A DNA stretch of 64,000 bases from NCBI GenBank assembly GCA_965223545.1, contig OZ245006.1, positions 608,001 through 672,000 on the forward strand, written 5' to 3'. The notes under the pieces were generated by a model. The model had not been told where the DNA came from and searched no databases. It saw nothing but the letters and a program-made list of their open reading frames with translations. Made by a program: the position numbers and the translations under genes. The DNA comes from Planctomycetota bacterium (lineage in GTDB: Bacteria > Planctomycetota > UBA1135 > UBA2386). Shown in pieces: positions 1,680-30,021 of the stretch. Position 1 is the first letter of the stretch, and each line of letters begins with the position of its first letter.

Positions 1680-3158
1680 ATGACGCGAACACCAGTGATT
1701 CTGTTGACCGGTGCGACCGGATACGTCGGCGGCCGCCTCCGCGCCGCCCTGGAAGCCGAGGGCGACTCGCTGCGATGCATGGCCCGGCGACCCGAGAACC
1801 TCCGCTCCCGCGTGTCGTCTTCGACCGAGGTCGTCGCGGGCGACGTGCTCGATCCCGACTCGCTCCAGGACGCTCTGAGCGGCACCAAGGTGGCCTACTA
1901 CCTGGTGCATTCCATGGGTTCCAAGGCCGACTTCGAAGAGAGAGATCGGCGTGCGGCGACCAACTTCGCAACGGCTGCGCGCGCGGCCGGACTCCGACGG
2001 ATCATCTACCTCGGGGGACTCGCCGAGCCCGGGTCGGATCTCTCCGCCCACCTTCGCAGCCGCCACGAAGTCGGCGAGATTCTGCGCACGTCCGGCTGCC
2101 AAGTCATCGAGCTGCGGGCATCGATCGTGATCGGCGCGGGGAGTCTGTCGTTCGAATTGGTCCGGTCGTTGGTCGAGCGGCTTCCCGTCATGATCACGCC
2201 GAAGTGGACCACGGTGGAGGCGCAGCCGATCGCGGTCGAAGATCTCATCGACTACTTGATGGCCTGCAGGCGGCTCGAAGGCACCGAGAACCGCATCTAC
2301 GAGATCGGAGGAGCCGATCGCGTCTCCTACGAAGGCCTGATGCGAGAATACGCCCGCCAGCGAGGCCTGCGCCGGTTCATGCTCCGCGTGCCCGTCATCA
2401 CCCCGTGGCTCTCGAGCCTCTGGCTCGGCCTGATCACGCCGGTCTTTGCCCGGATCGGGCGCAAGCTCATCGAGAGCATCAAGAGCCCCTCCGTGGTCCG
2501 CGACCCCTCGGCGGTCGTCGACTTCGACATCGAACCCACCGGGATGAGTTCTGCTATCGCCCGCGCCCTCGCCGACGAAGAAGCCTCGTTCGTTGAGAGC
2601 CGTTGGTCGGACGCACTCTCCAGCGGCGGCGACGTCGTGACCTGGGCGGGGGTCCGCTTCGGCAACCGGCTCGTCGACCGCCGCTCGCAGGTGCTCGCTC
2701 TGGAGCCCGTCGCTGCGTTCGCACCAATCCGTCGCATCGGTGGCAGGAACGGGTGGTACGCGTTCAACTGGCTCTGGAGCCTGCGCGGGACGATCGACCT
2801 CCTGCTCGGCGGCGTGGGCACGAGACGCGGGCGGTCACATCCGGACCGCGTCCGCGTCGGGGATGCCATCGACTTCTGGCGAGTGGAGGCATACGAGCCC
2901 GATCGACGGTTGCGCCTCTCGGCCGAGATGAAGCTCCCGGGAAGGGCATGGCTCGAGTTCGAAGCCAAGCCACAAGGCGCCGGCTCGGTGGTCTGCCAAA
3001 CCGCCGTCTTCGACCCCGTCGGTCTCGGCGGCCTGGCATACTGGTACCTCGTGTACCCACTGCACGCGCTCGTCTTTCGCGGCATGCTGAACGGGGTCAC
3101 GCGGGAAGCTCAGCGCGGCCGCGGCCGCAACCAAAGACCGAGCGCACCACGACAGTAG
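1680..3158 (+). CDS. Atypical SDR NAD(P)-binding oxidoreductase with C-terminal DUF2867-like domain (YbjT-like)
   Basis: ATG 1680; ILLTGATGYVG Rossmann motif; AYYLVHSM; C-terminal GDAIDFWRVE..RLRLSAEMKLPGRAWLEF. Confidence 0.85.
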   Translation: MTRTPVILLTGATGYVGGRLRAALEAEGDSLRCMARRPENLRSRVSSSTEVVAGDVLDPDSLQDALSGTKVAYYLVHSMGSKADFEERDRRAATNFATAARAAGLRRIIYLGGLAEPGSDLSAHLRSRHEVGEILRTSGCQVIELRASIVIGAGSLSFELVRSLVERLPVMITPKWTTVEAQPIAVEDLIDYLMACRRLEGTENRIYEIGGADRVSYEGLMREYARQRGLRRFMLRVPVITPWLSSLWLGLITPVFARIGRKLIESIKSPSVVRDPSAVVDFDIEPTGMSSAIARALADEEASFVESRWSDALSSGGDVVTWAGVRFGNRLVDRRSQVLALEPVAAFAPIRRIGGRNGWYAFNWLWSLRGTIDLLLGGVGTRRGRSHPDRVRVGDAIDFWRVEAYEPDRRLRLSAEMKLPGRAWLEFEAKPQGAGSVVCQTAVFDPVGLGGLAYWYLVYPLHALVFRGMLNGVTREAQRGRGRNQRPSAPRQ

Positions 3159-3312
3159 CGGAGCCCGCGAATCCAGCGGTGCTGGGCGGCCGCGCTGAGC
3201 CCGGAGGCCAGTGTTGTCTTCGAGCCTCCGGGAGCTGCGTTGTCGAATTCCCGGCGACGACGGGCCTTCCGAAAGGTTGTTGCCGCTCGAACATTCTCGG
3301 ACCCCGAGGCTC
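3108..3312. repeat. Palindromic REP/BIME-like repeat, copy 1 (empty IS target, AG core at 3223-3224)
   Basis: Near-identical to 3309-3518. Internal inverted repeats are GCTCAGCGCGGCCGC 3108-3122 / GCGGCCGCGCTGAGC 3186-3200 and GAGCCTCCGGG 3222-3232 / CCCCGAGGCTC 3302-3312. Confidence 0.9.
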
Positions 3313-3518
3313 AGTGCGGCCGCGGCCGCAACGGTATCAAAGACCGAGCGCACCACGACAGTAGCGGAGCCCGCGAATCCAGCGGTGCTGGGCGGCCGCG
3401 CTGAGCCCAGAGGCCAGTGTTGTCTTCGAGCCTCCGGGAGCTGCGTTGTCGAAGTTCCAGCGGCATCAAGCCTTCGAAAATGTTGTCGCCGCGCGAAGAT
3501 TCTCGGCCCCGGACGCTC
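3309..3518. repeat. Palindromic REP/BIME-like repeat, copy 2 (tandem; empty IS target, AG core at 3429-3430)
   Basis: Direct tandem duplicate of copy 1 (period ~201-206 bp) with the same TGTCTTCGAGCCTCCGGGAG site. Confidence 0.9.
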
Positions 3519-3548
3519 CGCGACTGGCGGAACTCGGGCTTGCGGGCC

Positions 3549-4004
3549 CTACCGGCACCGCGCCGCCAGCACCGCATCGAGGGTGACGTCGTGGCGATAG
3601 TCGAAGAGCTTGACCAGCCGCGGGCGGATGACGAAGCGATCGGCGCACCGCCCCAACGCGCCGAACGGAGGGGCGTAGTCGATCTCGTCGCGAAGCCGGC
3701 ACCCGGCCGCGTGCGCGAAGAAGAGGTGCTTGTGGCGCCACTCGGCGAACGGCCCCTCCACCATGACGTCCTCGAAGAACCGGTTCTTCTCGTAGGCGAC
3801 GTGCTCGGCCACGATCGTCGTCCACGACAGCCCGATCTTGGTGCGAACCCGCACCCTCGTTCCGACCTCGAGACCCGTGGGTGGTTCGATGATCTCGGTC
3901 CGCTCCCACGGCGGCTGCAGCAGGGCGAACGCGTCCGGCCGCTCATGGAACGCGAAGACCTCCTCCACAGTGGCGGGCAACACGCTCTCCTTCACGAATC
4001 GCAC
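3549..4004 (-). CDS. SRPBCC/START-fold ligand-binding protein
   Basis: GTG start 4004; VEEVFAFHERPDAFALLQPPW, FEDVMVEGPFAEWRHKHLF, LRDEIDY. Confidence 0.8.
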   Translation of the reverse strand: MRFVKESVLPATVEEVFAFHERPDAFALLQPPWERTEIIEPPTGLEVGTRVRVRTKIGLSWTTIVAEHVAYEKNRFFEDVMVEGPFAEWRHKHLFFAHAAGCRLRDEIDYAPPFGALGRCADRFVIRPRLVKLFDYRHDVTLDAVLAARCR

Positions 4005-4057
4005 GACCCGTCCGAGTCTACCTCGAGTCGGGCCGCGAACCCGGCCTCTTCCGCTGA

Positions 4058-6346
4058 TCACAGCGGCGCGCGCGTGAACACGCCGCGACCGTAGGTGCCG
4101 ATCGCGATCTCGTTGGAGCGCGGGTCGTAGACCATGTCGGTCACGTAGGGCGTGGTCGGCAACCCGTCGTTGTAGCTCTGCCACGTGGTGCCGCGGTCGG
4201 TCGACACGAAGACCCCGAGGTCGGAGCCGATGTAGAGGTGGCCGCGATCGTCCGGTGACCACAGCACACAGCGCACGTTGATCATCGATCCCAGGTTGCC
4301 CGTGCAATCGTTCCAGGTCTCGCCGGAATCGCGGCTGCAGACCACCCGGGTTCTAGTGATCCCACTCAGCCCCGCGATGACGAGGCGCCCGGCGTCGCTG
4401 ACCGAGCCGAACTCGATGTCGGTCACCTGCTTGCCCGACCACGATCCCGATCTGAGGGTGGCGAGATGAAGCGTCGGGTTGGCCGGAGTGGAGACGCGCA
4501 TGGGAACGATGCTGCCGTCGAGCCCGACCACGATCACTTCCGCAGTCGGCGTGGCGAGCGTCGCAGCAACCTTGGTCGGCACGGTTCCGGCCGGTACCGA
4601 GAACCGCTGGGACCACGCGGTGCCGGGGCCGGGGGTGCTGTAGACCGCGCCGCCGAAGTTCGTCAGGAAGGACCGGCCAGACCAGGTCAGGTCGGCGGTC
4701 CAGGGTTGACCACTCGGCAAACCGCTGGAGAACGAGTTCCACGCGCCACACGTCTGGCTCAGCGAGGGCGGGTACTGGAAGCGAAACTGACTGGTCGATG
4801 ACAGGCCGACCAGGGTCGAGTACAGCGTGCCGTCCTTGAACAACACGTCGCCACCGTCGCAGCAGGTGATTGCGTCCCACTGCCGGAACTCGTTGGGCCC
4901 CATCTGGACGCCGTTGTCCTGGGTGCCGATCGCGTATCGAGTTCCCGCGAACTTGTTGGCCTGATCCGGATTCACGGCGAGGGTACGCACCTGCATCGCG
5001 GCCAGCGAAGTCCCGCCGACCGTCCGCCATGTCGTGCCGACGTCCTCGGAACGCACGAGGCCGCCGTCGTTGCCGGCAAAGACGACGTTTCGCTTGGTGA
5101 CGTGTGGCCAGATGCACTGCACGTCCTCGTGCGTGAGGTTCGCGGAAGCCGTCCATGTCACACCCGCGTCGGTCGAGGTGTACATCGCGCGGGCGTTGCA
5201 ACCGGTCCACACCACGTTCGGGTTCGAATCCGAGACCGCGATCGCGTTGTTGTGTCGCATCTGACCCGCCGCCGGAACCGGCGTCGTCACCTGCGTCCAG
5301 CTCTGGCCACGGTCCATCGACCGCCAGATTCCGGCCCAAGTGTCATCGGGCGCCGCGACGCTGGCGTAGACCGCGTTGTGCACCCCGATCCTCCCGGCGC
5401 CAAGCGCGATCCGCGCCAAGGCCGGCGGCGCCCCCGGCAGAGCCTTGGTGACGAACGACCCGGCGGTCCCCTGGCTGCCACTCACGTGCACCACGCCATT
5501 CCGCGTCGTCGCGACGACCGAGAAGCTCCCCGTCAACGGCTGGCCGACGACCTCGACCGCCGCCATTTGATCGACGACGACCCGGTCCCAAGTTCCGGCT
5601 TCGCCGCGGAACAATCCCTGGCTCGAGGCGACGAAGACGACGTCCGAGTTGGGATCGCCCCCCGGCTGCACGTCGATGTCGGAAACGTACGCCGTGATGA
5701 GCGAAGTGAACGCCACGCGGCTCCACGACAGGCCCCCGTCCGAGGTGGTGTAGAGCAGCCCCATGGAAGGGGCGCCCGTGCCACCGAAACCGGTTCCGAA
5801 GCTGCCGGTGCCGACCCACGCGGTTCCGGACCGGACCAAGTGGGTTTCGATCGCGCTGATCGAAGGGTGTGCGATCGCGTCGAAGGCGGGCGCCCACGAA
5901 GCCCCCTCGTCGGTACTGCGCCACAGACCACCGCTCGAGGCGCCGGCCCACAGCAGCGACGGGTTGCCGAAGTCCTGGGCGAAACTGATGATGCGACCGG
6001 TCCAAGTTCCGGCCACCGGTAGACAGCCCGCGGGCCCTTGCGCACCGACCGGTCCGACGAACTCCCAGGGCAGGGCCGCGCCGTCGGCCTCGGGTGCGCC
6101 ACCGCGAGGGTCTCCGCCGGCATACAGGTGCGCCAGCCGAACACGGGCGACTTCGGCCGCCCCCTCTGGTTGGTAGGGGTCCGTCTGCTCCGCTGCTGGA
6201 GCTGGGACGCCCTGCGCAGTGCGTTGGTCGGCGTGCGTGCATGCCACGCCGAACAGGGCCGACGCGCTGGCGGCAGCGAGAGCAGAAAAACAGGTACGAC
6301 TGGATCGCGTCGACGGGGATCTCAGCGCGGCCGGGGCCGCAACCAA
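4058..6346 (-). CDS. Secreted/lipoprotein BNR (Asp-box) beta-propeller, sialidase/GH74/VPS10-like
   Basis: Multiple Asp-boxes (STDEGASW, TSDGGLSW, SMDRGQSW, STDAGVTW, SRDSGETW, STDRGTTW); GNDGG, GTQDNG and C-terminal GTYGRG; hydrophobic leader ending GVAC. Start uncertain (TTG 6346, inside repeat copy 3). Confidence 0.8.
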   Translation of the reverse strand: MVAAPAALRSPSTRSSRTCFSALAAASASALFGVACTHADQRTAQGVPAPAAEQTDPYQPEGAAEVARVRLAHLYAGGDPRGGAPEADGAALPWEFVGPVGAQGPAGCLPVAGTWTGRIISFAQDFGNPSLLWAGASSGGLWRSTDEGASWAPAFDAIAHPSISAIETHLVRSGTAWVGTGSFGTGFGGTGAPSMGLLYTTSDGGLSWSRVAFTSLITAYVSDIDVQPGGDPNSDVVFVASSQGLFRGEAGTWDRVVVDQMAAVEVVGQPLTGSFSVVATTRNGVVHVSGSQGTAGSFVTKALPGAPPALARIALGAGRIGVHNAVYASVAAPDDTWAGIWRSMDRGQSWTQVTTPVPAAGQMRHNNAIAVSDSNPNVVWTGCNARAMYTSTDAGVTWTASANLTHEDVQCIWPHVTKRNVVFAGNDGGLVRSEDVGTTWRTVGGTSLAAMQVRTLAVNPDQANKFAGTRYAIGTQDNGVQMGPNEFRQWDAITCCDGGDVLFKDGTLYSTLVGLSSTSQFRFQYPPSLSQTCGAWNSFSSGLPSGQPWTADLTWSGRSFLTNFGGAVYSTPGPGTAWSQRFSVPAGTVPTKVAATLATPTAEVIVVGLDGSIVPMRVSTPANPTLHLATLRSGSWSGKQVTDIEFGSVSDAGRLVIAGLSGITRTRVVCSRDSGETWNDCTGNLGSMINVRCVLWSPDDRGHLYIGSDLGVFVSTDRGTTWQSYNDGLPTTPYVTDMVYDPRSNEIAIGTYGRGVFTRAPL

Positions 6347-6436
6347 ACACGGAGCATTCCGCGACCCGAGCGTCGGTCGCGGGTTCCGCGGTCGCCGGCG
6401 GCCGCGCTGAGCCCAGAGGCCAGTGTTGTCTTCGAG
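6320..6436. repeat. Palindromic repeat copy 3, left part (interrupted by the IS)
   Basis: CTCAGCGCGGCCG...GCGGCCGCGCTGAGCCCAGAGGCCAGTGTTGTCTTCGAG; the last ~39 nt are identical to copy 2 up to the AG core. Confidence 0.9.
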
Positions 6437-6512
6437 ATGGGATGAGAGGGTCGATCCCTCCGACGCAGTCGCCACACAATGGCGCTGCAAAATCAAAGGA
6501 GCAGATCGACCC

Positions 6513-7589
6513 ATGACCAAAGTTACCGCTCAGACCTCCCCCGTGACCATCGGTCTCGACATTGGCGATCGGAACATCCACTACTGCGCACTGGACGCGT
6601 CGCGGACGGTCGTTGCGCGGGGCAGTTTCCCGACGACGCCGACAGCGCTCTCGAAGGCGCTGAGCGACTTCCCGGGCGCCAGAGTCGCTCTCGAGGCCGG
6701 CTCGCAGTCGGCCTGGATGTCTCGGCGGTTGCGCTCGGAGGGCTACGACGTTCACGTCGTGGACCCGCGCCGAGTGCAGCTGATCGCCAAGGATCCTCGC
6801 AAGACCGACCGGCGCGATGCCGAGACCCTGGCTCGCCTGGAGGCAGGGATGCCCGAGTTGCTCGGCACGATCCACCACCGCAGCGAGCAGGCACAGGCCG
6901 ACCTGTCGGTCATTCGTGCGCGCGACCTGCTGGTGAGGATGCGGACGATGGCAGTGCAGCAGGTCCGGAGCCTGGCGAAGGGCTTCGGCGTCCGGCTGCC
7001 GTCGGCATCGACCGCGGCGTTCCCGAAGCGAGCTCGCGAGTCCATGCCGGTCCTGCTACTCACTGCGGCGGAGCCGCTGCTGGACTTGATCGCCGACCTG
7101 TCCCGCCGGATCGACGAGCTCGACAAGGCGCTCGTCGAGGCGAGCCGCGAGCGATACCCCGAGGTCGCCGTCGTGCAGCAAGTCAACGGCGTGGGGCCGG
7201 TCACAGCGACCGCGTTCGTGCTGACGATCGAGGATCCGACACGATTCGCCGAAAGCCGCCGCGTGGGCTCCTGGCTCGGCTTGTGCCCAAAGAGCTTCGC
7301 GTCGGGCGACAGCAATCCGGAGCTGTCGATCAGCAAGGCTGGCGACGGCTATCTGAGACGGCTTCTGGTGCAGTGTGCGCACTACATCCTCGGCCCGTTC
7401 GGCAAGGACTGTGACCTCCGGCGCTTCGGGCAACGCCTGATCGCCCGCGGCGGCCGCGGCGCGAGGAAACGCGCGGCGGTCGCGGTTGCCCGCAAGCTCG
7501 CGCTACTGCTGCATCGGCTGTGGCGTCATGGCTTGGTCTACGACCCACTCCACAACAGCGACCGCGTAGCTGCCCACACCGCGGTATGA
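6513..7589 (+). CDS. IS110-family DEDD transposase/bridge recombinase
   Basis: RBS AGGAG 6497-6501; GLDIG, ALEAG, KTDRRDA (DEDD); GVGPVTA; GLCPKSFASG (catalytic Ser region); ISKAGD.YLRRLL; AVAVARKL. Confidence 0.95.
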   Translation: MTKVTAQTSPVTIGLDIGDRNIHYCALDASRTVVARGSFPTTPTALSKALSDFPGARVALEAGSQSAWMSRRLRSEGYDVHVVDPRRVQLIAKDPRKTDRRDAETLARLEAGMPELLGTIHHRSEQAQADLSVIRARDLLVRMRTMAVQQVRSLAKGFGVRLPSASTAAFPKRARESMPVLLLTAAEPLLDLIADLSRRIDELDKALVEASRERYPEVAVVQQVNGVGPVTATAFVLTIEDPTRFAESRRVGSWLGLCPKSFASGDSNPELSISKAGDGYLRRLLVQCAHYILGPFGKDCDLRRFGQRLIARGGRGARKRAAVAVARKLALLLHRLWRHGLVYDPLHNSDRVAAHTAV

Positions 7590-7678
7590 CCCAACCATGA
7601 TCGCCCCACCCCCAACCAACCGAATACCGTGGAGGAACCTGGCGTGATGCCGCTCCTGCACTGCTGAAGACTCACCGC

Positions 7679-7815
7679 CCGATCCCGGCGACAGCGACCG
7701 GAGGCTTGGCCCTCGAGGCCGTTATCGAGAAAGCTGCGCCGGGTCGGACGGATCTCATCGTGCACCGGTCTCGGACGAGGCCATCAGAGTGCGTATGGAA
7801 GCCTGCGGAGTCCGA
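7679..7815 (+). ncRNA. Putative bridge/seek RNA of the IS1111-type element (exact ends unknown)
   Basis: Two stem/internal-loop modules. Target loop has CCGGAGGCT 7698-7706 and TCGAG 7725-7729, matching the target. Donor loop has ATCTCATC 7752-7759 and ATGGAAG 7795-7801, matching the circle junction. Confidence 0.8.
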
Positions 7816-7885
7816 AGCTTGTCGCGCAGGGCGGCGCCAAGGCGCCCAGATTCTCAAGAAGAACAGATCCACAGACAAAGAGCTG

Positions 7886-7912
7886 TTGACGGGATCGCCC
7901 CTCTCATGGAAG
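7886..7912 (+). promoter_or_regulatory. -35 box (TTGACG) of predicted IS circle-junction promoter
   Basis: TTGACG 7886-7891 plus a 17-nt spacer. Circularisation creates GAAGAT at the -10 position, versus GAAGCC in the integrated state. Confidence 0.55.
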
Positions 7913-8001
7913 CCTCCGGGAGCTGCGTTGTCGAAGTTCCAGCGGCATCGAGCCTTCCGAAAGGTTGTCGCCGCGCGAAGATTTGCGGACCCTGAGGCTC
8001 A
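7913..8001. repeat. Palindromic repeat copy 3, right part
   Basis: CCTCCGGGAGCTGCGTTGTCGAAGTTCCAGCGGCATC...CCTTCCGAAAGGTTGTCGCCGCGCGAAGAT...GAGGCTCA continues the repeat exactly where the left part stopped. Confidence 0.9.
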
Positions 8002-8233
8002 CGGTGCGTTTTGCGGATGCGGGGTGTGACATGCCCCGGGCAGTGCCGCGCCGCAGCGACCGCAACACCCAACACGGCAACTTCCCCATATCTCTCACCC
8101 CTCGGTGTTGCATTCCGGCGGTCACGACACTCTCAACGAGGCGATGGCGCTTGACCGCAACACCTAGCCGACCGCTGCGCCGCGCTTCGGCGGCCACTCG
8201 GCCATACTACGGCGCAGGCGAGACCCTCCGCGA

Positions 8234-8926
8234 ATGTCAGACATCCCAGACCCCTCCGCCGCGGTCACGCGTGCCCTCGATGACGGAGACGCCCGCGCTC
8301 TCGACGAGCTCGTGGTCGCGTTGCTGCCACGGCTGGAGGCCTACGTCCACCTGAAGATGGGACCAGGCCTCCGGCAGCGTGAGGGATCGGCGGACGTCGT
8401 GCAGTCGGTGTGCCGCGAGGCTCTCGAGGGCTTGCGCGATGGCCCGTTCGAGTTCCGCGGCAGAGCGGCCTTCTTGTCCTGGCTGTTCACCACCGCGCTC
8501 AACAAGATTCGCGAGCGCGACCGATTCAATCGCCGCCAGCGCCGGGCTGCCGCACGCGAGTTGCCGGCAACCGCGATCGGCTCGGCCGCCGGCCACTTGG
8601 TGTCGCCGAGCCGCAAGCTCATGGCCCAGGAGGAGCTCGCCCGGGTCGAGCACGTCTTCGGCACGCTGTCGGAACGCGACCAAGAGATCATCATCCTCGC
8701 CCGCGTCATGGGGCTGGCGCGGACCGAGATCGCCGAGCTGCTCGGCTGCACCGCCGCCGCGGCGCGCGTCAGACTGGGACGCGCCGTGGCGCGCTTGGGC
8801 GCGGCGCTCGCAAACGCCGAAGGCGACGCCCTGCCATCACGGGCGCCGGATCGATTGCGCGGCAGCATCGACGCCGGCGAGGACGACGACTCGTCCACCG
8901 GCGCTCGACCGGACTCCTCGCGGTGA
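8234..8926 (+). CDS. ECF sigma-70 factor, planctomycete-type
   Basis: Region 2 (SADVVQSV, AAFLSWLFTTALNKIR) and region 4 (LSERDQEIIIL..GL.RTEIAELLG..AARVRLGRA). Confidence 0.9.
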   Translation: MSDIPDPSAAVTRALDDGDARALDELVVALLPRLEAYVHLKMGPGLRQREGSADVVQSVCREALEGLRDGPFEFRGRAAFLSWLFTTALNKIRERDRFNRRQRRAAARELPATAIGSAAGHLVSPSRKLMAQEELARVEHVFGTLSERDQEIIILARVMGLARTEIAELLGCTAAAARVRLGRAVARLGAALANAEGDALPSRAPDRLRGSIDAGEDDDSSTGARPDSSR

Positions 8927-8935
8927 CCCGCACCC

Positions 8936-11900
8936 TCACCGTCCGTTCGCGAAACGATCGGCGGCTCCCGCCTCCCACTTGTGCAGAAACGCCGGCCATC
9001 CCCACCGCTCGTGGAAACGCGCGTACAAGCGGCGACCATCCCGAGACCAGGCCAAATGGCTACTCGTGCCACCGCCGAGTTCCAACAACAACGTGCCCGT
9101 CGCAAAGTCCAGGATCTTGACCTTGCCGTCTGCACCCGAGGTCGCGACGCGTTGGCTGTCCGGCGCGACGGCCACGGAGTACACGCTCGTCGACAGTCGG
9201 GCGAGCTGACGCACGACTGTCAAATCCTCGGCGTCGCGCAGATACACACCACCCCCGGCATCTCCAGTGACGATCAGCGGCTCGTCCGGCACCGGCGCAA
9301 GGTCCGCCACGCGTTGATCGGTGCGCGCAGCGGCCTCGAGCTCCCCGTCGCCGACAGCAAACCGCAGCAGCTCACCATCATCGCGGCCACAGAAGACGCC
9401 CTTGCCGTCCGCTGAGAACTCCGAGAAGGCGGGTGGCGAGGAGCCCGCGTCGAACTCGTGTCGCCAGCGCACGTCGAGGGAGACCGCATCCAGCACCTGC
9501 ACCGACATGTCGTCCCAAGAGGAGATGGCGAGACTCAGCCCGTCCGGACTCACCGAGATCGCCGAGATCCTACCGGGCACCACCCGGCGCTCACCCTCGA
9601 TCGATGCATCGCGGACGCGGAAGCGGCGCAGGATCCCATCCCACCCGACGACGAACATCGCGTCGGTCGTGAGCGCGGCTCGCTCGCCGAGCATCTCGGG
9701 CGAGGACGCCTCATGGTGCATCACGATCGCACCGGTCCGCAGCTCGCGCACCGCGATGCTGCCGTCCATCTCCGAGTACGCGACGCGCCCCGACGCAACG
9801 TCGTAGCCGACGCCGCGACAGTCCCTGCCAAGCGAGTACGAGACCAGGTCTTGCGGCGGTTTCGCCGGCCACACTTTGACCGTGCCGCCGTGCGCCATGG
9901 TCGCGAGCCGCGATCGGTCGGGGGAGAGCGCGCAGCCGAAGACGCCGAGCGCGTGGCCGTCGTAGCTGCCCAGCGGCTCTCCGGTATCGAGCTTCCAAGC
10001 GGCCACCATCGCCTTGCCCCATCCGCCGACGGCATAGAGCACGCCGTCGCTCGAGTCGATCACCATTTCCCGCACGACCTCGGGCACGCGCAACGCGTAG
10101 CGCAGCGCACCGGTGTCGGCTTCTCGCACGACGATGCGCGGGTCCCCACCGGAGAGCACGAGGAGGTTTCGGCGCGGCGCCACCCGCAGCAGTTGAGGAG
10201 CCTGCAGCAGGAAAGGCACTTCACCTGGCTCGACGAGCGTGCGTTGCTGGCCGGTCGCGAGGTCGATGCGCGCGAGACGCCCCTCTTTGTCGCCCCAATA
10301 CAAACTGTTTCCATCGGGAGCGTACTCGATGAGCACGACCCAGCCGGGGACGGGATACTCCGTGGTCGGCGAACTGGAGTCACCGAGCGATTGGATCCGC
10401 AGCGGGGCGTCCACCGTTCCCCACGCGTAGTGGGTGCCGTCCGGCGAAACCGCGATCGGAAGGTAATCCAAGCCCGACGCCAGCCTCCTCACCTTCGTCT
10501 GCGCGCTGGTGTCGATCAGGTCGGCGTAGAGGTCCCCGCCCGTCCGCCCAATCGCGATCACCCGGTGACTCTCGGTGGTCGGGACGATCGCGTAGCCCTC
10601 GGAAGAGATCGGGATCTCGGTAGCCTCGCTGGACCCCACAGCCCAGCGAAGCGGAGACGCTTTCTCCGGCGCGACCAGGAGCTCGCTATCCGACAGCCAA
10701 TGCACCCGGCCCGCGCTCGAACAGACCCCGGTCAAGGAGAACAAGGCGTCGTCGACCTGGTGCAGGATCCAGTCGTGCTCCCAGCCCCGCAGCGCCGGAT
10801 CCGTCGCCGCCAGCTGCCGCTGCGCCTCGCCCGCCTGACCGGCATCCAGCGCGAGCTTTGCCGCTCGGATCGACGTGGTGTAGGTGCCCCAGTCCGCGCG
10901 GCGCCTCTCAGCGGCGACGTTCTTCTCCGCTTGCTCGACCCGTCGGGCACCCCACAGCAGGGCGGCCGCGCCCAGCAACAGGGCCAGTACCAAGCCGACG
11001 ACGGCGACGACCGTCGCCCGGTGGCGCCGCACGAGGCGGCTGAGCTCGTAGACCAGCGTCGGACGCCGCGCGGCGATGGGCTGAAACTCCAGCACTCGGC
11101 GGACATCGCTGGCGAACGCGGAGACGGTCGGATAACGACGTTCGGGATTGCGCTCCAGGGCACAGCGCACGACGACCTCGACGTCGCCGCGGAGGTGGCG
11201 GGCCAATCGGGCCGGCGTGCTGTTTCGCTTCGACGCCAGTGCCGGAGCATCGGACCGCTTGAGCAGCAGGCGGCTCGGCGGCTCGATCTCGCCCTCCAGG
11301 ATCCGGCGAAGCCCGGCCTGCAGCGGCAGCTCCCCGACGCTGCGACGATCCTGCGGCAAGTCGCCAGTCAGCAGCTCGTAGAGCACCAACCCCAGGGCGT
11401 ACACGTCCGTCCGCGTGTCCACCGCGCCACCTTCGAGCTGCTCGGGACTCGTGTACGTGGGGGTTCCGACGAATCCTCCGGCAACGGTCAGACTCTGCCC
11501 GCCCCGCGAAGCCAATGCCTTCGCCAAGCCAAAGTCGATGATCACGGGTCGCGGCCCCTCGAGGTCGTGGGCAACGAGGATGTTCGACGGCTTCAAGTCT
11601 CGATGGATGACACCGCGCTGGTGCGCATGCGCGACGCCGGCACACACGTCGACAAACAAGCGCAACCGGGCGTCGATGTCATAGCGATGCTGGTCACAGA
11701 ACCGCGTCAGCCAAGGGCCATCGATCAGCTCCATTGCCATGAAGGGCTGTCCGTTCGTCGCGATCCCCACGTCGAACACCGTGGCGATCGCGCGGTGCTG
11801 CATCTTGGCGAGCACCTGACCCTCGGCGGCGAAGCGCACCAGCGAGTCTCGGTCCTCACAATGCCAACGCAGCACCTTGATCGCGACCGCCCGATCGACC

Positions 11901-12238
11901 GGCGCGGTCTGCCGACCGCGATACACCGTGCCGAAGCCACCTCGCCCCACGACCTGCTCGACCTCGTAGTTGTCGATCTCCGGCAGTGCGGGCGCCAAGG
12001 GGACGGCGCGCAACAACTCTTGGCCGCGCGCCAACGACTCGAACAGGGCCCGAATCGCCGCGCCGTGGTCGGGCCACTGCCGGCACAAGGCGTCGACGTC
12101 GTCGGGCCCGGTTTCGCCGCCGACCCGGGACCACGCTTCATAGCACGCCTCTTCGACGGCAGGTGGCAAGGCCGGGGACCGCGCCTCCGTCGAACCATGC
12201 CGGCCAGCGGCTGAGGAGCTAGACGAGCGACCGACCAT
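8936..12238 (-). CDS. Ser/Thr protein kinase with TM segment and C-terminal WD40 propellers
   Basis: GRGGFGTV, VAIK, HRDLKPSN, DFG, GTPTYTSPEQ, TDVYALG; TM VVAVVGLVLALLLGAAALLW; LRGWEH; WD40 repeats. Start uncertain. Confidence 0.92.
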   Translation of the reverse strand: MVGRSSSSSAAGRHGSTEARSPALPPAVEEACYEAWSRVGGETGPDDVDALCRQWPDHGAAIRALFESLARGQELLRAVPLAPALPEIDNYEVEQVVGRGGFGTVYRGRQTAPVDRAVAIKVLRWHCEDRDSLVRFAAEGQVLAKMQHRAIATVFDVGIATNGQPFMAMELIDGPWLTRFCDQHRYDIDARLRLFVDVCAGVAHAHQRGVIHRDLKPSNILVAHDLEGPRPVIIDFGLAKALASRGGQSLTVAGGFVGTPTYTSPEQLEGGAVDTRTDVYALGLVLYELLTGDLPQDRRSVGELPLQAGLRRILEGEIEPPSRLLLKRSDAPALASKRNSTPARLARHLRGDVEVVVRCALERNPERRYPTVSAFASDVRRVLEFQPIAARRPTLVYELSRLVRRHRATVVAVVGLVLALLLGAAALLWGARRVEQAEKNVAAERRRADWGTYTTSIRAAKLALDAGQAGEAQRQLAATDPALRGWEHDWILHQVDDALFSLTGVCSSAGRVHWLSDSELLVAPEKASPLRWAVGSSEATEIPISSEGYAIVPTTESHRVIAIGRTGGDLYADLIDTSAQTKVRRLASGLDYLPIAVSPDGTHYAWGTVDAPLRIQSLGDSSSPTTEYPVPGWVVLIEYAPDGNSLYWGDKEGRLARIDLATGQQRTLVEPGEVPFLLQAPQLLRVAPRRNLLVLSGGDPRIVVREADTGALRYALRVPEVVREMVIDSSDGVLYAVGGWGKAMVAAWKLDTGEPLGSYDGHALGVFGCALSPDRSRLATMAHGGTVKVWPAKPPQDLVSYSLGRDCRGVGYDVASGRVAYSEMDGSIAVRELRTGAIVMHHEASSPEMLGERAALTTDAMFVVGWDGILRRFRVRDASIEGERRVVPGRISAISVSPDGLSLAISSWDDMSVQVLDAVSLDVRWRHEFDAGSSPPAFSEFSADGKGVFCGRDDGELLRFAVGDGELEAAARTDQRVADLAPVPDEPLIVTGDAGGGVYLRDAEDLTVVRQLARLSTSVYSVAVAPDSQRVATSGADGKVKILDFATGTLLLELGGGTSSHLAWSRDGRRLYARFHERWGWPAFLHKWEAGAADRFANGR

Positions 12239-12343
12239 GGGGAGAATTGTGGCCGGACCGGCGGCGGTCCGAAAGGGCAGGCGGACACACGACGGCGGCC
12301 CCTGGGAGACGACAGTGGCAAACCCCGACGCCATAGTAGTCGC

Positions 12344-13774
12344 ATGCGCCCGCATCCCGACGAAGCCGAAGCGCTCCTGGACCTGGTCCGCGACGCCACG
12401 CGCGACTACCTCGCCTCTCTAAAGGCCCGCCCGGCGCGACCGCGCGGCGCTGGCGCCGCCGCCGAGTCGTTCGCCGGACCGCTACCCGAGGACGGAGTGG
12501 GCGCCGAGGCCGCCCTGCGGGAGCTGATCGCGCGCGGCCCGGATGCGGCCGTGCACAGCGCGGGTCCGCGCTACTTCCACTTCGTCATCGGGGGCAGCAC
12601 GCCCGCTGCCCACGCGGCAGACTGGTTTGCCTCGACTCTCGACCAACTGGCCTCGGCCTGGGTCAGCTCGCCCCTCGGCGTGCGCCTCGAGCAGATCAGC
12701 TTGGAATGGCTGAAGGACTTGTTCGGCCTGCCCGCATCGATGTTCGGAGTGATGACGACCGGCGCGATGATGGCGAACTACACCGGCCTCGCCGCCGCCC
12801 GGCAGTGGTGGGGTGAGCGGCAGGGCGTCGACACGGCCCAAGACGGCATCGCGCAGTTGCCGCCGATGCAGGTGCTGACCAGCGGGCACGTGCACGCGAC
12901 GATCGACAAGGCCCTGGCCATGCTGGGCGTCGGCCGCCGCCAGGTCCGGCGCTTCGCGCGCGACGCCGCCGGGCACCTCGACGAGGACGCACTGCGCGCG
13001 GCGCTGCAAGCGCTCGACGGGGCACCGGCCGTCTTGGTCGCGAACGCCGGCGAGGTCAACACCGGCGCCTTCGACCCGATCGAGACGATGGCCGCGCTGG
13101 CGCACGAGTTCGGTTGCTGGCTGCACGTCGACGGCGCCTTCGGCCTGTTCGCGCGCACCGCCCCCGAAACCGCCGCGCTGGCGCGGGGAGTCGAGCGCGC
13201 CGACTCGGTCACCGTGGATGGCCACAAGTGGCTCAACGTGCCGTACGACTGCGGCTTCGCCTTCGTCCGCGACCGCACGCTGCTCGCCAAGGTGTTCGCG
13301 CTGGTCGCCGACTACTTGCCGGACCCGGCCGATCCACGCCCGATGTACTCGAGCCTCGGCCCCGAGTCGTCGCGGCGGGCGCGAGCGCTGGCGGTGTGGG
13401 CAACCCTGCGCGCCTACGGACGCAGCGGCGTGCGCGCCATGGTCGAGGAGCACCTGCGCCTGGCGCGCCGGCTGGCAGCGCGCGTCGACGAGGCACCCGA
13501 CCTCGAGCGGCTGGCACCCGTGCCGCTCAACATCGTCTGCTTTCGCTACAACCCCGGTGGGTTGGACCCAGCGGCGCTCGATGCGGTCAACGAGCAGCTG
13601 GCGGAGGCCGTGCTCGCCGACGGCCGGGTCTACGTCGGCGCGACGCGGTTCGAGGGTGTGGTCGCCCTGCGTCCGGCGATCGTCAACTGGCGCACGGACG
13701 ACTCGCACATCGACGAGCTGGTCGACGTCGTGCGCACCCTGGGCGCGGCCTGCAACCAAGCGCCCGAAGATTGA
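12344..13774 (+). CDS. PLP-dependent decarboxylase (group II, aromatic-amino-acid/glutamate decarboxylase family)
   Basis: PRYFHFV, AGEVNTGAFDP, WLHVDGAFG, DSVTVDGHKWLNVPYDCG, LNIVCFRY. Confidence 0.9.
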   Translation: MRPHPDEAEALLDLVRDATRDYLASLKARPARPRGAGAAAESFAGPLPEDGVGAEAALRELIARGPDAAVHSAGPRYFHFVIGGSTPAAHAADWFASTLDQLASAWVSSPLGVRLEQISLEWLKDLFGLPASMFGVMTTGAMMANYTGLAAARQWWGERQGVDTAQDGIAQLPPMQVLTSGHVHATIDKALAMLGVGRRQVRRFARDAAGHLDEDALRAALQALDGAPAVLVANAGEVNTGAFDPIETMAALAHEFGCWLHVDGAFGLFARTAPETAALARGVERADSVTVDGHKWLNVPYDCGFAFVRDRTLLAKVFALVADYLPDPADPRPMYSSLGPESSRRARALAVWATLRAYGRSGVRAMVEEHLRLARRLAARVDEAPDLERLAPVPLNIVCFRYNPGGLDPAALDAVNEQLAEAVLADGRVYVGATRFEGVVALRPAIVNWRTDDSHIDELVDVVRTLGAACNQAPED

Positions 13775-13815: not shown

Positions 13816-15219
13816 CTACAGCGCCTGCATCAGCGCGGTGACCCCGTTGCTGAGGACGATCCCGAGCGGGTTCGCCGCACCATCCGCGACCGCGGCCTGC
13901 AGGTGTAGCGACACCCCTTGCAGCGCCGGCAGGTCGGGGATCGGCAGCGTCCATGTCCGCGTCACGCCCGCGCCGGACACCGCATCGGTGGCGTCCGGGC
14001 TGACCAGCAGCGCACACTGCGCCGCGCCGAGCGGGGCGAGCGACCAGGGCAAAGTCACACCACCTCCCGCCCACGCGGTATTCGACGCGCCGAACGCGAT
14101 GATCGCGGGCGCGCCCGCCGGCAGATTGCCGACTTCGAGGCCGAGGGTCTCACCGAGCCACGGCCGCAAGTTGTCCTCCAGCTGGAGCGACGGCGTGCCA
14201 GCCGAACCGGCGCACCCCGCGCCAAACGCGGTGACCTGCGCGGGGCTCGGGTTGTAGTACTCCCAAGTGTCCAGCGGCCCGAGAGGGCTGGAGCGCGTCA
14301 CCATCACCATGCGCTGCCGGCGCTCGTCGAACGCCATCCGCCCGTAGCTGCCCAGCGGTGGCGATACGGCCGGAGTCCGGTAGGACCACGTACCGTCGAA
14401 GTCGTCGGTCGTCGCCGGGTTGTAGCCACACGCGTAGCCGCAGGTGGCCCAGCCGCCAAACGCCACCATCTTGCGCCGCAGCTTGTCGTACGCCAGGGCA
14501 TGGCCGACGCGCTTGGCCCCCAACGCGGCCGGTCGCATCGCGGTTCCATCCCACTCGACCGTCCGGCCGACGACGAACGTGGTCTGCTGGCCGGTCCAGT
14601 AGTAGGGCACGCTGTACTGGCCTCCGTAGATGACGACCACCGCGCGGTCGGGGTCGAACGCCATGACTGCGCCATTGCCACCGCCACCTCCACCGGCCCA
14701 ACGCTGCACCCAGGTCGAGCCGGTCCACGCCCACAGATCGCCGGTGGACAGGTACAACCCGGCGGCGCTGTCCCAGTACTCACCACAGCCGAGCAGCACC
14801 TCGCGGCGCGCCCCGTCGTACACCAGGCTGTGCCCGGTGCGCTGGGGAGTCGGCTGCGCCGCGGGAGTGATCTTCGCCCAAGCCGTGCCGTCGAACTCCC
14901 ACACATCGGCGCCTTGGGTCCCGACGACGCGGTGACGGTGGTAGTCGTAGACCGCCAACTGCAGATTGGGCGGCACGACGCCACTCGCCGGCACCAAGGT
15001 CCACTGGACCCCATCGTAGCTCCAGACCTCGATGCCAGAGCCGCCGCCACCGACCCACCACACGGCCTGCGCGGTCGGAGACCACGCCATCACCGCGGGT
15101 GCGAGCCCGGGCGGCGCCGTCGCCAACTGGCGGTTGACCCAAGTCGACTGGGCCGCCGCGGGGATCGCAACGGCGCACAACACGGCAGACAACAACGGGC
15201 TCGGGCAAACCGATCGCAT
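13816..15219 (-). CDS. Secreted kelch-like six-bladed propeller protein with conserved C-terminal domain
   Basis: ATG 15219, signal peptide ending AAAQ; 6 repeats (VWSYDG, VWEFDG, LWAWTG, VEWDG, DDFDG, TWEYY); C-terminal FGAGC...QCALLVSPD...LPIP...NPLGIVLSNG. Confidence 0.85.
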   Translation of the reverse strand: MRSVCPSPLLSAVLCAVAIPAAAQSTWVNRQLATAPPGLAPAVMAWSPTAQAVWWVGGGGSGIEVWSYDGVQWTLVPASGVVPPNLQLAVYDYHRHRVVGTQGADVWEFDGTAWAKITPAAQPTPQRTGHSLVYDGARREVLLGCGEYWDSAAGLYLSTGDLWAWTGSTWVQRWAGGGGGGNGAVMAFDPDRAVVVIYGGQYSVPYYWTGQQTTFVVGRTVEWDGTAMRPAALGAKRVGHALAYDKLRRKMVAFGGWATCGYACGYNPATTDDFDGTWSYRTPAVSPPLGSYGRMAFDERRQRMVMVTRSSPLGPLDTWEYYNPSPAQVTAFGAGCAGSAGTPSLQLEDNLRPWLGETLGLEVGNLPAGAPAIIAFGASNTAWAGGGVTLPWSLAPLGAAQCALLVSPDATDAVSGAGVTRTWTLPIPDLPALQGVSLHLQAAVADGAANPLGIVLSNGVTALMQAL

Positions 15220-15350
15220 CACGCTCACTCCCAGGTTTCGGCTGCGGGCTCGGGCCGCATTCGGGGCGACTCTCGAGCCCCGGACTTGCAACTCATTAGA
15301 ACACATTCTCGACCGCTTTGACACCCCCGCGCGCGTGGACGTGTGGCACC

Positions 15351-15734
15351 TCACACCGATGCTGCGCCTCGGCCGCGGCGCAGCATGCCCAGCACCACGA
15401 ACACCACGAACGGCACGCTGGTCAACAACCCACTCGACAGTGGACGCAGGTCGCGCACGTAGTCGATCCAATGGATCGCCGCGATCAACGCGAAGTAGAA
15501 CGTGAGCACCACGTGCGCTGCGCCGCATCGGGCGGGGGCGCACGCGCACCAGCCGCTCAAGGCGCCGAGTGCCAGCGCACCCGCGCTCGCCTCTTGCACA
15601 ACGTGCAGCGCCTCTCCGTCGAAGCCCGCCGCGATCTCCGGCAGCACACCGAAGGGCAGCAGCGCACCGATGCCACCGATGCCGAGCATGCCGAGAGCGA
15701 ACAGGGCGTAGATGGTGCGGTGCAGCGTCCACAT
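15351..15734 (-). CDS. Small four-TM membrane protein, function unknown
   Basis: ATG 15734; four hydrophobic segments, two containing His. Confidence 0.65.
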   Translation of the reverse strand: MWTLHRTIYALFALGMLGIGGIGALLPFGVLPEIAAGFDGEALHVVQEASAGALALGALSGWCACAPARCGAAHVVLTFYFALIAAIHWIDYVRDLRPLSSGLLTSVPFVVFVVLGMLRRGRGAASV

Positions 15735-15804
15735 CGTCCTGGCATCGTAGCCGCTCGCGCGGCGCGACTCCGTACAATCAGCACACCCCCCCGCCCCCCG
15801 GAGA

Positions 15805-17142
15805 ATGCTCGCCACCACGCTAGTCGCCTCTTTCGCCGCCGCCCTGGCACAGCCGTCGCAACCGCCGTCGCCCTCGCGACCACCCAACGTGGTCGTGGTC
15901 TTCACCGACGACCAGGGCTACGGCGACCTGGAGTGCTACGGACACCCCGTCCTCCGCACACCGCATCTCGACCGGCTGGCGGCCTCGGGCGTCCGGTTGA
16001 CGCAGTTCTACGCCGGCGGCCCCGTGTGCACGCCATCGCGCGCCGCACTGCTGACCGGCTGCTACCCGGTGCGCGTCGGCCTGCACCAACGCGTGATCTA
16101 TCCCGACAGCGACTTCGGCCTCCATCCCGAGGTGACGACGGTCGCCGAGCTGCTGCGCACCCGGGGCTACACCAACGGCTGCTTCGGCAAGTGGCATCTG
16201 GGTCACCGCCGCGGATTGATGCCCACCGACCAGGGCTTCGACGAGTTCTACGGGGTGCCCTACTCCAACGACATGGCGCAGGCGCATCGCGCCGCGGACG
16301 ACGACTATCCCTTCCGCCTGCCGCTGATGCGTGGCGACGCCGTGGTCGAATGGGAACCGGATCAGCGCACACTGACCCAGCGCTACACCGACGCGGCGAT
16401 CGCGTTCATGCAGACGCATTGCGAACGGCCGTTCTTCGTCTACCTGGCCCACTCGATGCCACACGTGCCACTGTTCGTCGACGCCGGCCGGGCGGGGCGG
16501 AGTCCGGCGGGCCTGTACGGCGACGTGATCGAGGCGATCGACGACAGCGTGGGGCGAATCCTGGCAGTGTTGGACGACCTCGAGCTGCGGCAACAGACCG
16601 TGGTTTGGTTTGCCAGCGACAACGGACCCGCGCGGCACGCCGCCGACCACGGCGGCTGCGCCGGGCCGCTCCGCGGTGGCAAGGGCACGGTCTGGGAGGG
16701 CGGTCTGCGGGTGCCATGCCTGGTGTCATGGCCAGGAGTCATCCCCGCCGGGACTACCTGTCGAGCCATCGCGACCGCGATGGACTTCCTGCCCACGGTC
16801 GCGGGCTGGGCCGGTGCGACGCACGAGGCCACCATCGACGGACACGACATCGGCGGGCTGCTGGCGGGCACGACCGAGGCATCGCCGACGTCGCGATTCC
16901 TCTACTACGACCGGGATGGCGAGCTCGCCGGCATCCGCCTAGGCGCCTACAAGCTGCTGTTGGAGGGGCCGCAGCTCTACCACCTCGAGCGCGACGTCGG
17001 CGAGCGCCGTGACCTGGCGGGACAAGAGCCCGCGCTGGTCGAAACGCTGCGCGAACGCGCGACGAAGACGGACCGCGCAATCAGGGCCGCTGCGCACCCG
17101 ACGCATCCGGGCACGGGCGCCTTGTTCTCTCCCGCGCGCTGA
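15805..17142 (+). CDS. Secreted formylglycine-dependent sulfatase (arylsulfatase A-like, S1)
   Basis: PNVVVVFTDDQG, CTPSRAALLTG, GKWHLG, SDNG, GGKGTVWEGGLRVP; signal peptide. Confidence 0.95.
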   Translation: MLATTLVASFAAALAQPSQPPSPSRPPNVVVVFTDDQGYGDLECYGHPVLRTPHLDRLAASGVRLTQFYAGGPVCTPSRAALLTGCYPVRVGLHQRVIYPDSDFGLHPEVTTVAELLRTRGYTNGCFGKWHLGHRRGLMPTDQGFDEFYGVPYSNDMAQAHRAADDDYPFRLPLMRGDAVVEWEPDQRTLTQRYTDAAIAFMQTHCERPFFVYLAHSMPHVPLFVDAGRAGRSPAGLYGDVIEAIDDSVGRILAVLDDLELRQQTVVWFASDNGPARHAADHGGCAGPLRGGKGTVWEGGLRVPCLVSWPGVIPAGTTCRAIATAMDFLPTVAGWAGATHEATIDGHDIGGLLAGTTEASPTSRFLYYDRDGELAGIRLGAYKLLLEGPQLYHLERDVGERRDLAGQEPALVETLRERATKTDRAIRAAAHPTHPGTGALFSPAR

Positions 17143-17161
17143 TCGCAGGTTGCCCGCACGA

Positions 17162-29930: not shown

Positions 29931-30021
29931 GCCGGGAATCCTCGCGGCGACAACCTTTCCGAAGGCCCGCAGTCGTCAGCGCTTCGATACCGCAACGCCC
30001 GGACGCTCAACAGCACGGTCC
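29931..30021 (-). repeat. Diverged, inverted partial copy 4 of the palindromic repeat
   Basis: Minus strand reads GAGCGTCCGGGCGTTGCGGTATCGAA...CGGGCCTTCGGAAAGGTTGTCGCCGCG, aligning with 3222-3300; lies between convergent genes. Confidence 0.8.

What the first reader, a model, noticed from the sequence alone, without database searches (positions are those of the whole stretch)
7679..7815. Fully decodable bridge/seek RNA: all four guides match the repeat target and the IS circle junction
Seen: read on the bottom strand, the empty target is CCGGAGG-CT-CGAAG and the predicted circle junction is ATCCCAT-CT-TCCAT. Module 1 is a stem (CCCGGCG-A-CAGC 7684-7695 / GCTG-CGCCGGG 7733-7743) enclosing an internal loop closed by a GGCC/GGCC hairpin (7708-7720). 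Its arms are CCGGAGGCT (7698-7706, 9/9 to left target + core) and TCGAG (7725-7729, reverse complement of core + right target). Module 2 (TCGGAC 7744-7749 / GTCCGA 7810-7815, inner GCAC/GTGC hairpin) has arms ATCTCATC (7752-7759, 7/8 to left donor, the mismatch being a G:U) and ATGGAAG (7795-7801, 7/7 to core + right donor). Established: IS110/IS1111 recombinases use such bipartite RNAs, and IS621 uses a CT core. Inference: this is an intact, candidate programmable RNA-guided recombinase from a little-sampled lineage, with target, donor and guides all visible in one window.
Basis: partly seen in the sequence, partly recalled or inferred. Interest (0 to 1): 0.82.

Follow-up and report, generated by a model that had tools for sequence, protein, structure and literature searches.

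The report
IS1111-type transposon with readable guide RNA
This is a jumping gene of a known RNA-guided family whose guide RNA really does spell out both the genomic repeat it lands in and its own joined ends; the decoding is sound, but the system is a new example of an already described mechanism.

Summary
Window 6435-7912 is a 1478-bp IS1111-group (IS110-family) element: intact 358-aa DEDD/serine recombinase, 16/17 sub-terminal inverted repeats, AG (bottom strand CT) core at both ends, long 3' non-coding region. Four identical copies in the genome all sit at the same site of a ~200-bp dispersed repeat. One correction: the outer stem of module 2 is wrong (53% paired in relatives); a three-way junction closed by 7669-7678/7805-7812 fits better (82-94%), as Durrant et al. 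predicted for IS1111 bridge RNAs. The clade is already in their published tree; nearest named elements look like ISAcp5/ISCARN52. Expression and activity untested. Extra: one copy carries a partial duplication joined exactly at its own right-target-guide DNA. New member of a known kind.

The parts
6314..6434 (+). Left half of the ~200-bp target repeat; 6430-6434 is the arm read by the right target guide
   Evidence: repeat family D2; same flank in 4 of 4 copies
6435..6436 (+). Left core dinucleotide AG (CT on the bottom strand)
   Evidence: core AG in the right target guide of 61 of 62 relatives
6437..6443 (+). Left element end read by the left donor guide
6442..6458 (+). Left sub-terminal inverted repeat (16/17 with 7891-7907)
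   Evidence: sequence; paired ends found in 75 of 139 loci
6513..7589 (+). IS110-family recombinase, 358 aa; D16 E61 D99 D102 and S264-G265
   Evidence: PF01548 + PF02371, NF033542 230 bits over cut-off 140, residues kept in at least 98% of 62 relatives
7669..7812 (+). Bridge/seek RNA core: three-way junction closed by 7669-7672+7675-7678 with 7805-7812
   Evidence: model R1 hits 89 of 97 loci given
7679..7751 (+). Target-binding arm: basal stem, internal loop, apical hairpin 7708-7720
   Evidence: 97% and 89% paired with many compensatory changes, basal part 94% paired
7698..7706 (+). Left target guide, 9/9 to the right flank plus core (pairs with the top strand)
   Evidence: 6.34/9 own versus 4.53 permuted in 62 relatives
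7723..7729 (+). Right target guide (5 nt + core; pairs with the bottom strand of the left flank)
   Evidence: positions 1-5 match own flank 97/84/95/76/69% versus 25-33% permuted
7730..7731 (+). Handshake position of the target loop (AA here, AT in 53 of 62 relatives = first two bases of the left end)
   Evidence: role inferred from IS621
7752..7759 (+). Left donor guide (7/8, one G:U)
   Evidence: LD positions 3-5 covary in 60 relatives
7762..7792 (+). Donor-arm hairpin (GCAC/GTGC and inner stem)
   Evidence: GCAC/GTGC 100% paired, one pair with a double change
7795..7801 (+). Right donor guide, 7/7 to the right end plus core
   Evidence: variable position matches own end in 62 of 62 versus 85% permuted
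7802..7803 (+). Handshake position of the donor loop (CC = first two bases of the right flank)
   Evidence: second base 58% versus 34% permuted; weaker in the strictest set
7886..7891 (+). Outward -35-like box that could form a promoter across the circle junction
   Evidence: TTGAC/TTGAT/TTGCC 27-28 nt from the end in 50 of 62 relatives; -10 only 3/6; inference
7891..7907 (+). Right sub-terminal inverted repeat
   Evidence: sequence
7911..7912 (+). Right core dinucleotide AG
7913..8000 (+). Right half of the target repeat; 7913-7919 is read by the left target guide
   Evidence: repeat family D4
3218..3231 (+). Empty target site in a repeat copy
3424..3437 (+). Empty target site in the next tandem repeat copy

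Best explanation
An active or recently active IS1111-group insertion sequence using a bispecific bridge RNA. Inferred cycle: the element forms a circle whose junction joins right end, core and left end; the junction brings the right-end -35 box in front of the recombinase gene and its 3' RNA; the RNA (core 7669-7812, a three-way junction) loads on the DEDD/serine recombinase; the internal loop of the target arm pairs with both strands of a 14-bp site in a ~200-bp dispersed, hairpin-forming repeat, the single strands flanking the donor hairpin pair with the circle junction, and recombination at the shared 2-bp core inserts the element in one orientation. Shown here: anatomy, fixed site in 4 of 4 copies, guide-target and guide-donor covariation, conserved fold. 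Inferred from IS621/ISEc11 literature: transcription, circle, protein binding, chemistry.
For: 4 identical copies, same site and orientation; catalytic residues intact and conserved; 0 of 20000 shuffles give all four matches; covariation in 62 relatives, 0 of 2000 permutations for right-target-guide positions 1-5, 0 of 5000 for the left target guide, still 0 of 3000 with one element per 70% or 60% protein cluster (42 and 24 elements); donor guides covary; top-strand match 5' of bottom-strand match, the IS1111 order; handshake bases match the post-insertion junctions as in IS621; multi-loop donor module predicted for IS1111 in Durrant et al. and found here.
Against: No expression, circle or activity data. 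Single-sequence fold is no more stable than shuffles, and the closing helix has pair probability of only 0.02-0.32 in single-sequence folds. The left target guide fits poorly (5/9 or less) in 24 of 62 relatives (rows). LD position 2 is mismatched in 48 of 60 relatives and position 7 matches in only 25 of 60. No consensus promoter in the linear element. Permutation tests do not fully remove relatedness.
Confidence: 0.92

Rival explanations
1. seekRNA-only model: only the target arm (about 7679-7751) guides; the donor ends are recognised by protein through the sub-terminal inverted repeats, and the donor matches are conserved by descent, not read.
For: Siddiquee et al. found a 70-100-nt short RNA sufficient for ISEc11 transposition; donor ends and donor guides are mostly invariant, and LD positions 2 and 7 often mismatch.
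Against: Where donor ends vary the guides vary with them: right-end position 3 matches in 62 of 62 versus 85% permuted (100 versus 67% among 24 distant elements); LD positions 3-5 match 80/83/92% versus 62/54/80% permuted.
Confidence: 0.12
2. One reading: 7744-7749 pairs with 7810-7815) is the working structure in this element, or an alternative state.
For: Perfect 6-bp complementarity here and in several close relatives; alignment-free test 4.12 versus 3.84 permuted, 14 of 5000.
Against: 53% of cells paired versus 82% and 94% for the competing helices that use the same bases; tested pair has probability 0.0 in four single-sequence folds; leader helix scores 5.46 versus 4.63, 0 of 5000.
Confidence: 0.1
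3. The matches are chance in a 70% GC genome and the site is chosen by protein or by the repeat's DNA hairpin alone.
For: The target arm is one side of a DNA hairpin (-9.7 to -15.3 kcal/mol); a stem-loop adds specificity for ISPpu10 (abstract).
Against: one of the four occupied sites has a degraded hairpin arm.
Confidence: 0.02

Closest known systems
IS1111-group elements ISEc11, ISKpn4, ISPa11 (seekRNA; Siddiquee et al. 2024, PMC11187229)
   Same: Sub-terminal inverted repeats, long 3' non-coding region, top-strand match 5' of bottom-strand match, GL-P----SG motif, repeat target (ISPa11 in REP)
   Different: Different target; 358 aa (paper gives 330-350 aa for the group); donor-side guides are readable and covary here, which the sections read do not describe
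ISAcp5 / ISCARN52 (ISfinder; a diverged IS1111 branch)
   Same: By eye the most similar named proteins in the supplement passages shown; ISAcp5 is called a more diverged IS1111 relative
   Different: ISAcp5 is said to have long non-coding regions on both sides; here the left end is only 76 bp. Similarity judged by eye, not computed; their RNAs were not examined
Unnamed cluster 1f909b488bc2f50e33 in Durrant et al. 2024 Supplementary Table 1 (PMC11208160)
   Same: About three quarters identical over the RuvC domain by my eye count: the clade is already in the published tree
   Different: No guide decoding or assay for it seen in the passages and supplement rows read
IS621 / ISCro4 (IS622) bridge recombinases
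   Same: Two-domain recombinase (only PDB sequence hits, E 5e-8 and 3e-8), 2-nt CT core, four guides, handshake bases
   Different: Those carry the RNA in the left end as two simple internal loops; here it is in the right end, reads the element in the opposite sense, and the donor guides lie in a three-way junction
ISPpu10 and ISPpu9 of Pseudomonas putida
   Same: Insertion into repeats with a stem-loop (abstract); partial modules made from internal recombination sites (abstract)
   Different: Need for the stem-loop not shown here; no solo RNA module found elsewhere in this genome

Membership tests
IS110 family | [quoted passage not shown] | tested here: met
   D16 E61 D99 D102 S264 kept in at least 98% of 62 relatives
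IS110 family | Site-specific insertion at a short core, one orientation | tested here: met
   4 of 4 copies; 61 empty sites
IS110 family | Circular intermediate | tested here: inconclusive
   No circle joint listed in contigs of 3 DNA runs; contigs drop rare forms
IS1111 group | Sub-terminal inverted repeats of 7-17 bp set in from the ends | tested here: met
   16/17, 5 and 3 nt inside the cores; 75 of 139 loci show paired ends
IS1111 group | Long non-coding region downstream of the gene | tested here: met
   left 76 bp, right 323 bp
IS1111 group | Top-strand match 5' of bottom-strand match in the RNA | tested here: met
   7698-7706 pairs with the top strand, 7723-7729 with the bottom; rule
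IS1111 group | Phylogenetic placement among IS1111 transposases | not tested
   No tree built; by-eye likeness to ISAcp5/ISCARN52; best plasmid hits 31-34% identical, one named ISMno22, which clusters with ISAzs32
Bridge RNA | Target guides covary with both target strands | tested here: met
Bridge RNA | Donor guides covary with the circle junction | tested here: met
   rests on 4 variable positions
Bridge RNA | Guides lie in loops of a conserved fold | tested here: met
   unpaired in the consensus fold; 86% cells paired, 0 of 500 shuffles; only half unpaired in single-sequence folds
Bridge RNA | RNA is expressed and binds the recombinase | not testable with these tools
   no RNA holder listed; the one RNA run laid gave no test
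Bridge RNA | Reprogrammable in an assay | not testable with these tools
   only natural retargeting across relatives is shown
IS110 group (IS621-like) | RNA in a long left end, two simple internal loops | tested here: not met

The most novel reading that the evidence does not exclude
This IS1111 branch uses a three-way-junction bridge RNA whose donor module is truly base-paired, and the DNA encoding the guides acts as built-in half-sites: the element can recombine its right end into its own right-target-guide sequence, producing tandem RNA-end modules that give raw material for guide change. One copy here shows exactly that junction (the only TATCG-AG among 87 AG positions in the element), and relative L024 shows a right end joined to another AG in its own non-coding region. 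It would be a natural target-half-only event, a class that the in vivo analysis read excluded and that the survey read did not report.
Probability: 0.3. Interest if true: 0.5.

Novelty: new member of a known kind. Interest (0 to 1): 0.33.

Why it matters
Solved structures with sequence similarity cover only IS621 and ISCro4; IS1111-type RNAs are less worked out and the two 2024 papers differ on whether they are target-only 'seek' RNAs or bispecific bridges. This clade gives about 60 naturally retargeted elements on one scaffold, with covariation on the donor side and a defined three-way fold, so it is a ready test set and a candidate compact recombinase far (best plasmid hits at most 34% identity) from those in use. 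It does not change the mechanism known since 2024.

Tried and rejected
Rfam: 0 matches at E up to 1 over 2800-8400. Single-sequence folding was uninformative. Promoter/terminator scan of the linear element: 0 and 0. Sequencing runs: no RNA holder listed; RNA run X18 laid 0 reads, no test; no circle joint and no duplication joint listed in contigs of X1, X4, X5, which shows neither absence nor presence; the 6434-7911 skip seen in all three can come from other empty repeat copies and was not counted as excision; depth over the element of about 124 versus about 33 on the flanks in X1 fits four copies but X1 may be the source sample. The near-copy of the right junction at 7795-7808 is taken as coincidence, as that stretch is the alignment consensus whatever the target. 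Right-target-guide positions 6-8 do not covary. No solo RNA modules in the genome beyond the 4 copies and the one partial duplicate. Earlier scan findings: nothing. Literature searches for self-targeting (2 reviews, listing only), Planctomycetes and multi-loop (only Durrant et al.) found no study of this clade; DNA end motifs were absent from the searchable supplements (one picture PDF each not searched, one file cut; bioRxiv supplements closed). A quick look for guides of the second IS110 element was not carried through.

Full report
Observation. They lie in the 323-bp stretch between the stop codon of a 358-aa ORF (6513-7589) and the end of a 1478-bp element (6435-7912, counting the AG core at both ends). 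The ORF has both IS110 domains, passes the NCBIfam cut-off for IS110 RNA-guided transposases and matches only IS621 and ISCro4 among solved structures. Numbered from Met1, D16, E61, D99, D102 and S264-G265 are present and kept in at least 98% of 62 relatives. The 8.1-Mb genome holds four copies identical in sequence, three whole and one interrupted; all four have the same ends and sit at the same position and orientation in a dispersed repeat. The repeat gives 184 blastn hits, 68 of them at least 180 nt, in 130 clusters, and the target's right arm is one side of a DNA hairpin. In 20000 shuffles of the non-coding region all four guide matches never occur together.

Covariation. I gathered 139 loci: 31 from genome contigs (best hits named Planctomycetota MAGs, 60-62% identity), 28 from 23 of 201 genomes of the same class, own genome included, and the best 80 of 183 from metagenomes. 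Both ends were found in 75. Two lacked the right-donor-guide motif and identical pieces were merged, leaving 68; 5 lacked a flank and 1 was redundant, leaving 62, the window element included. The five bases before the core in the right target guide equal the element's own left flank in 97, 84, 95, 76 and 69% of elements against 25-33% when guides and flanks are permuted (0 of 2000 each); positions 6-8 show nothing. The best left-target-guide match is 6.34 of 9 against 4.53 (0 of 5000), but 24 of 62 elements score 5 or less. The one variable base of the right end follows the right donor guide in 62 of 62 against 85%. For 60 of 62 elements, left-donor positions 3-5 match in 80, 83 and 92% against 62, 54 and 80% (0 of 3000 each), whereas position 2 is mismatched in 48 and position 7 matches in only 25. 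With one element per 70% or 60% protein cluster (42 and 24 elements) the target-guide and right-donor signals stay at 0 of 3000. The two bases after each right guide resemble the handshake guides of IS621 (passages of PMC13626964): AT in 53 of 62 target loops, equal to the start of the left end (AA in this element), and a second donor-loop base that follows the right flank in 58% against 34% (140 of 3000 in the strictest set, so weaker). Permutation does not remove all relatedness.

Structure. The outer stem of module 2 is not: on 26 hand-picked relatives (alignment A2) it is 53% paired. A model in which 7746-7751 extends the target arm (94% paired) and a leader at 7669-7678 pairs with 7805-7812 (82% paired; 8-12 double changes at each of its four outer pairs, none at the inner four) fits better. 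A covariance model finds the RNA in 89 of the 97 loci I gave it (91 matches; a few of these loci overlap the sets above) and only at the four copies and one partial duplicate in this genome. No Rfam family matches.

Mechanism. Shown: anatomy, fixed site, covariation, fold. Inferred from the family: excision or copy-out to a circle, a junction promoter (a -35-like box lies 27-28 nt from the right end in 50 of 62 elements, but the -10 across the junction is only 3/6; none in the linear element), loading of the RNA on the recombinase, pairing of four guides with target and donor, strand exchange at the core. Public reads gave no test of expression or circles.

Comparison with the literature. Durrant et al. 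(PMC11208160; section 12 whole; passages; supplement rows) predicted bridge RNAs in 93% of IS1111 elements, in the right end, often with donor bases in a multi-loop: this is what is found here. Siddiquee et al. (PMC11187229; abstract and sections 6, 8, 9, 13, 14; supplement passages) give the IS1111 hallmarks met here and name ISAcp5 as a diverged member; ISAcp5 and ISCARN52 look by eye like the nearest named proteins, and an unnamed cluster in Durrant's tree table is about three quarters identical over the RuvC domain by eye count. Ortholog screening in 10.1101/2025.05.14.653916 focused on the IS621-like clade (passages). Searches found no study of this clade; bioRxiv supplements, one picture PDF per paper and the cut part of one file were not seen and might list it.

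Side result. The copy at G000:C1:7067774-7063615 ends with a tandem repeat of element positions 1294-1478: its right end is joined through the AG core to the AG of its own right target guide, the only such perfect half-site among 87 AG positions in the element. Homology at the joint is 2 nt, which argues against a simple assembly slip, but the joint is not listed in the contigs laid. L024 has its right end joined to another AG in its own non-coding region, at a contig end; 2 of 139 loci show this. Insertion into a resident copy followed by homologous deletion, or a mini-circle, would explain it (inference). Half-match recombination (10.64898/2026.08.31.748434; abstract and section 8) and tandem non-coding modules beside IS110 genes (10.64898/2026.08.14.744561; passages and section 8) are described, mainly for donor halves, so this is a variant of a known event. 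ISPpu9 modules and the ISPpu10 stem-loop were seen as abstracts only.

Verdict. Real, well decoded, and ordinary in kind: a new member of the IS1111-group bridge recombinases, with a corrected RNA fold. Interest 0.33.

Noticed in passing
G000:C1:7063615-7063799 (locus L059): Tandem duplicate of the last 185 bp of the element, joined at the AG core to the element's own right-target-guide DNA: looks like a self half-match event.
   Followed up: partly
L024:2554-2608: Relative whose right end is followed, via AG, by a repeat of its own non-coding region from 25 nt after the stop; at a contig end.
   Followed up: partly
G000:C1, 11 places, e.g. 6423429 and 6848761: A second, distant IS110-family element (about 1.95 kb, about 500 aa, long left end) in 11 copies, inserted at another position of the same or a related repeat; one copy sits right beside a copy of the element studied. 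Its guides were not decoded.
   Followed up: partly
G000:C1:7065013-7067500: A 2488-bp element in about 8 copies interrupts the recombinase gene of copy 4; inverted ends, short flanking duplication and a 540-aa ORF suggest IS66 family (label recalled, not searched).
   Followed up: partly
window 3102-3518, 6314-6436/7911-8000, 29943-30008: The ~200-bp dispersed, partly tandem, hairpin-rich extragenic repeat itself (184 hits, 130 clusters) is an uncharacterised REP/BIME- or MITE-like family; no mobilising enzyme was looked for.
   Followed up: partly
G000:C1, 57 sites: A related repeat class carries the perfect left-target arm and core but a C at right-target position 3; none of the four copies uses it (too few to test).
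   Followed up: no
window 8234-8926 and 8936-12355: ECF-type sigma-factor-like ORF next to a Ser/Thr kinase-like ORF with beta-propeller repeats on the opposite strand; judged by eye from the translations.
   Followed up: no
window 14452-19341: Protein-coding repeats of about 147-168 bp period (Kelch-like by eye) on the minus strand.
   Followed up: no
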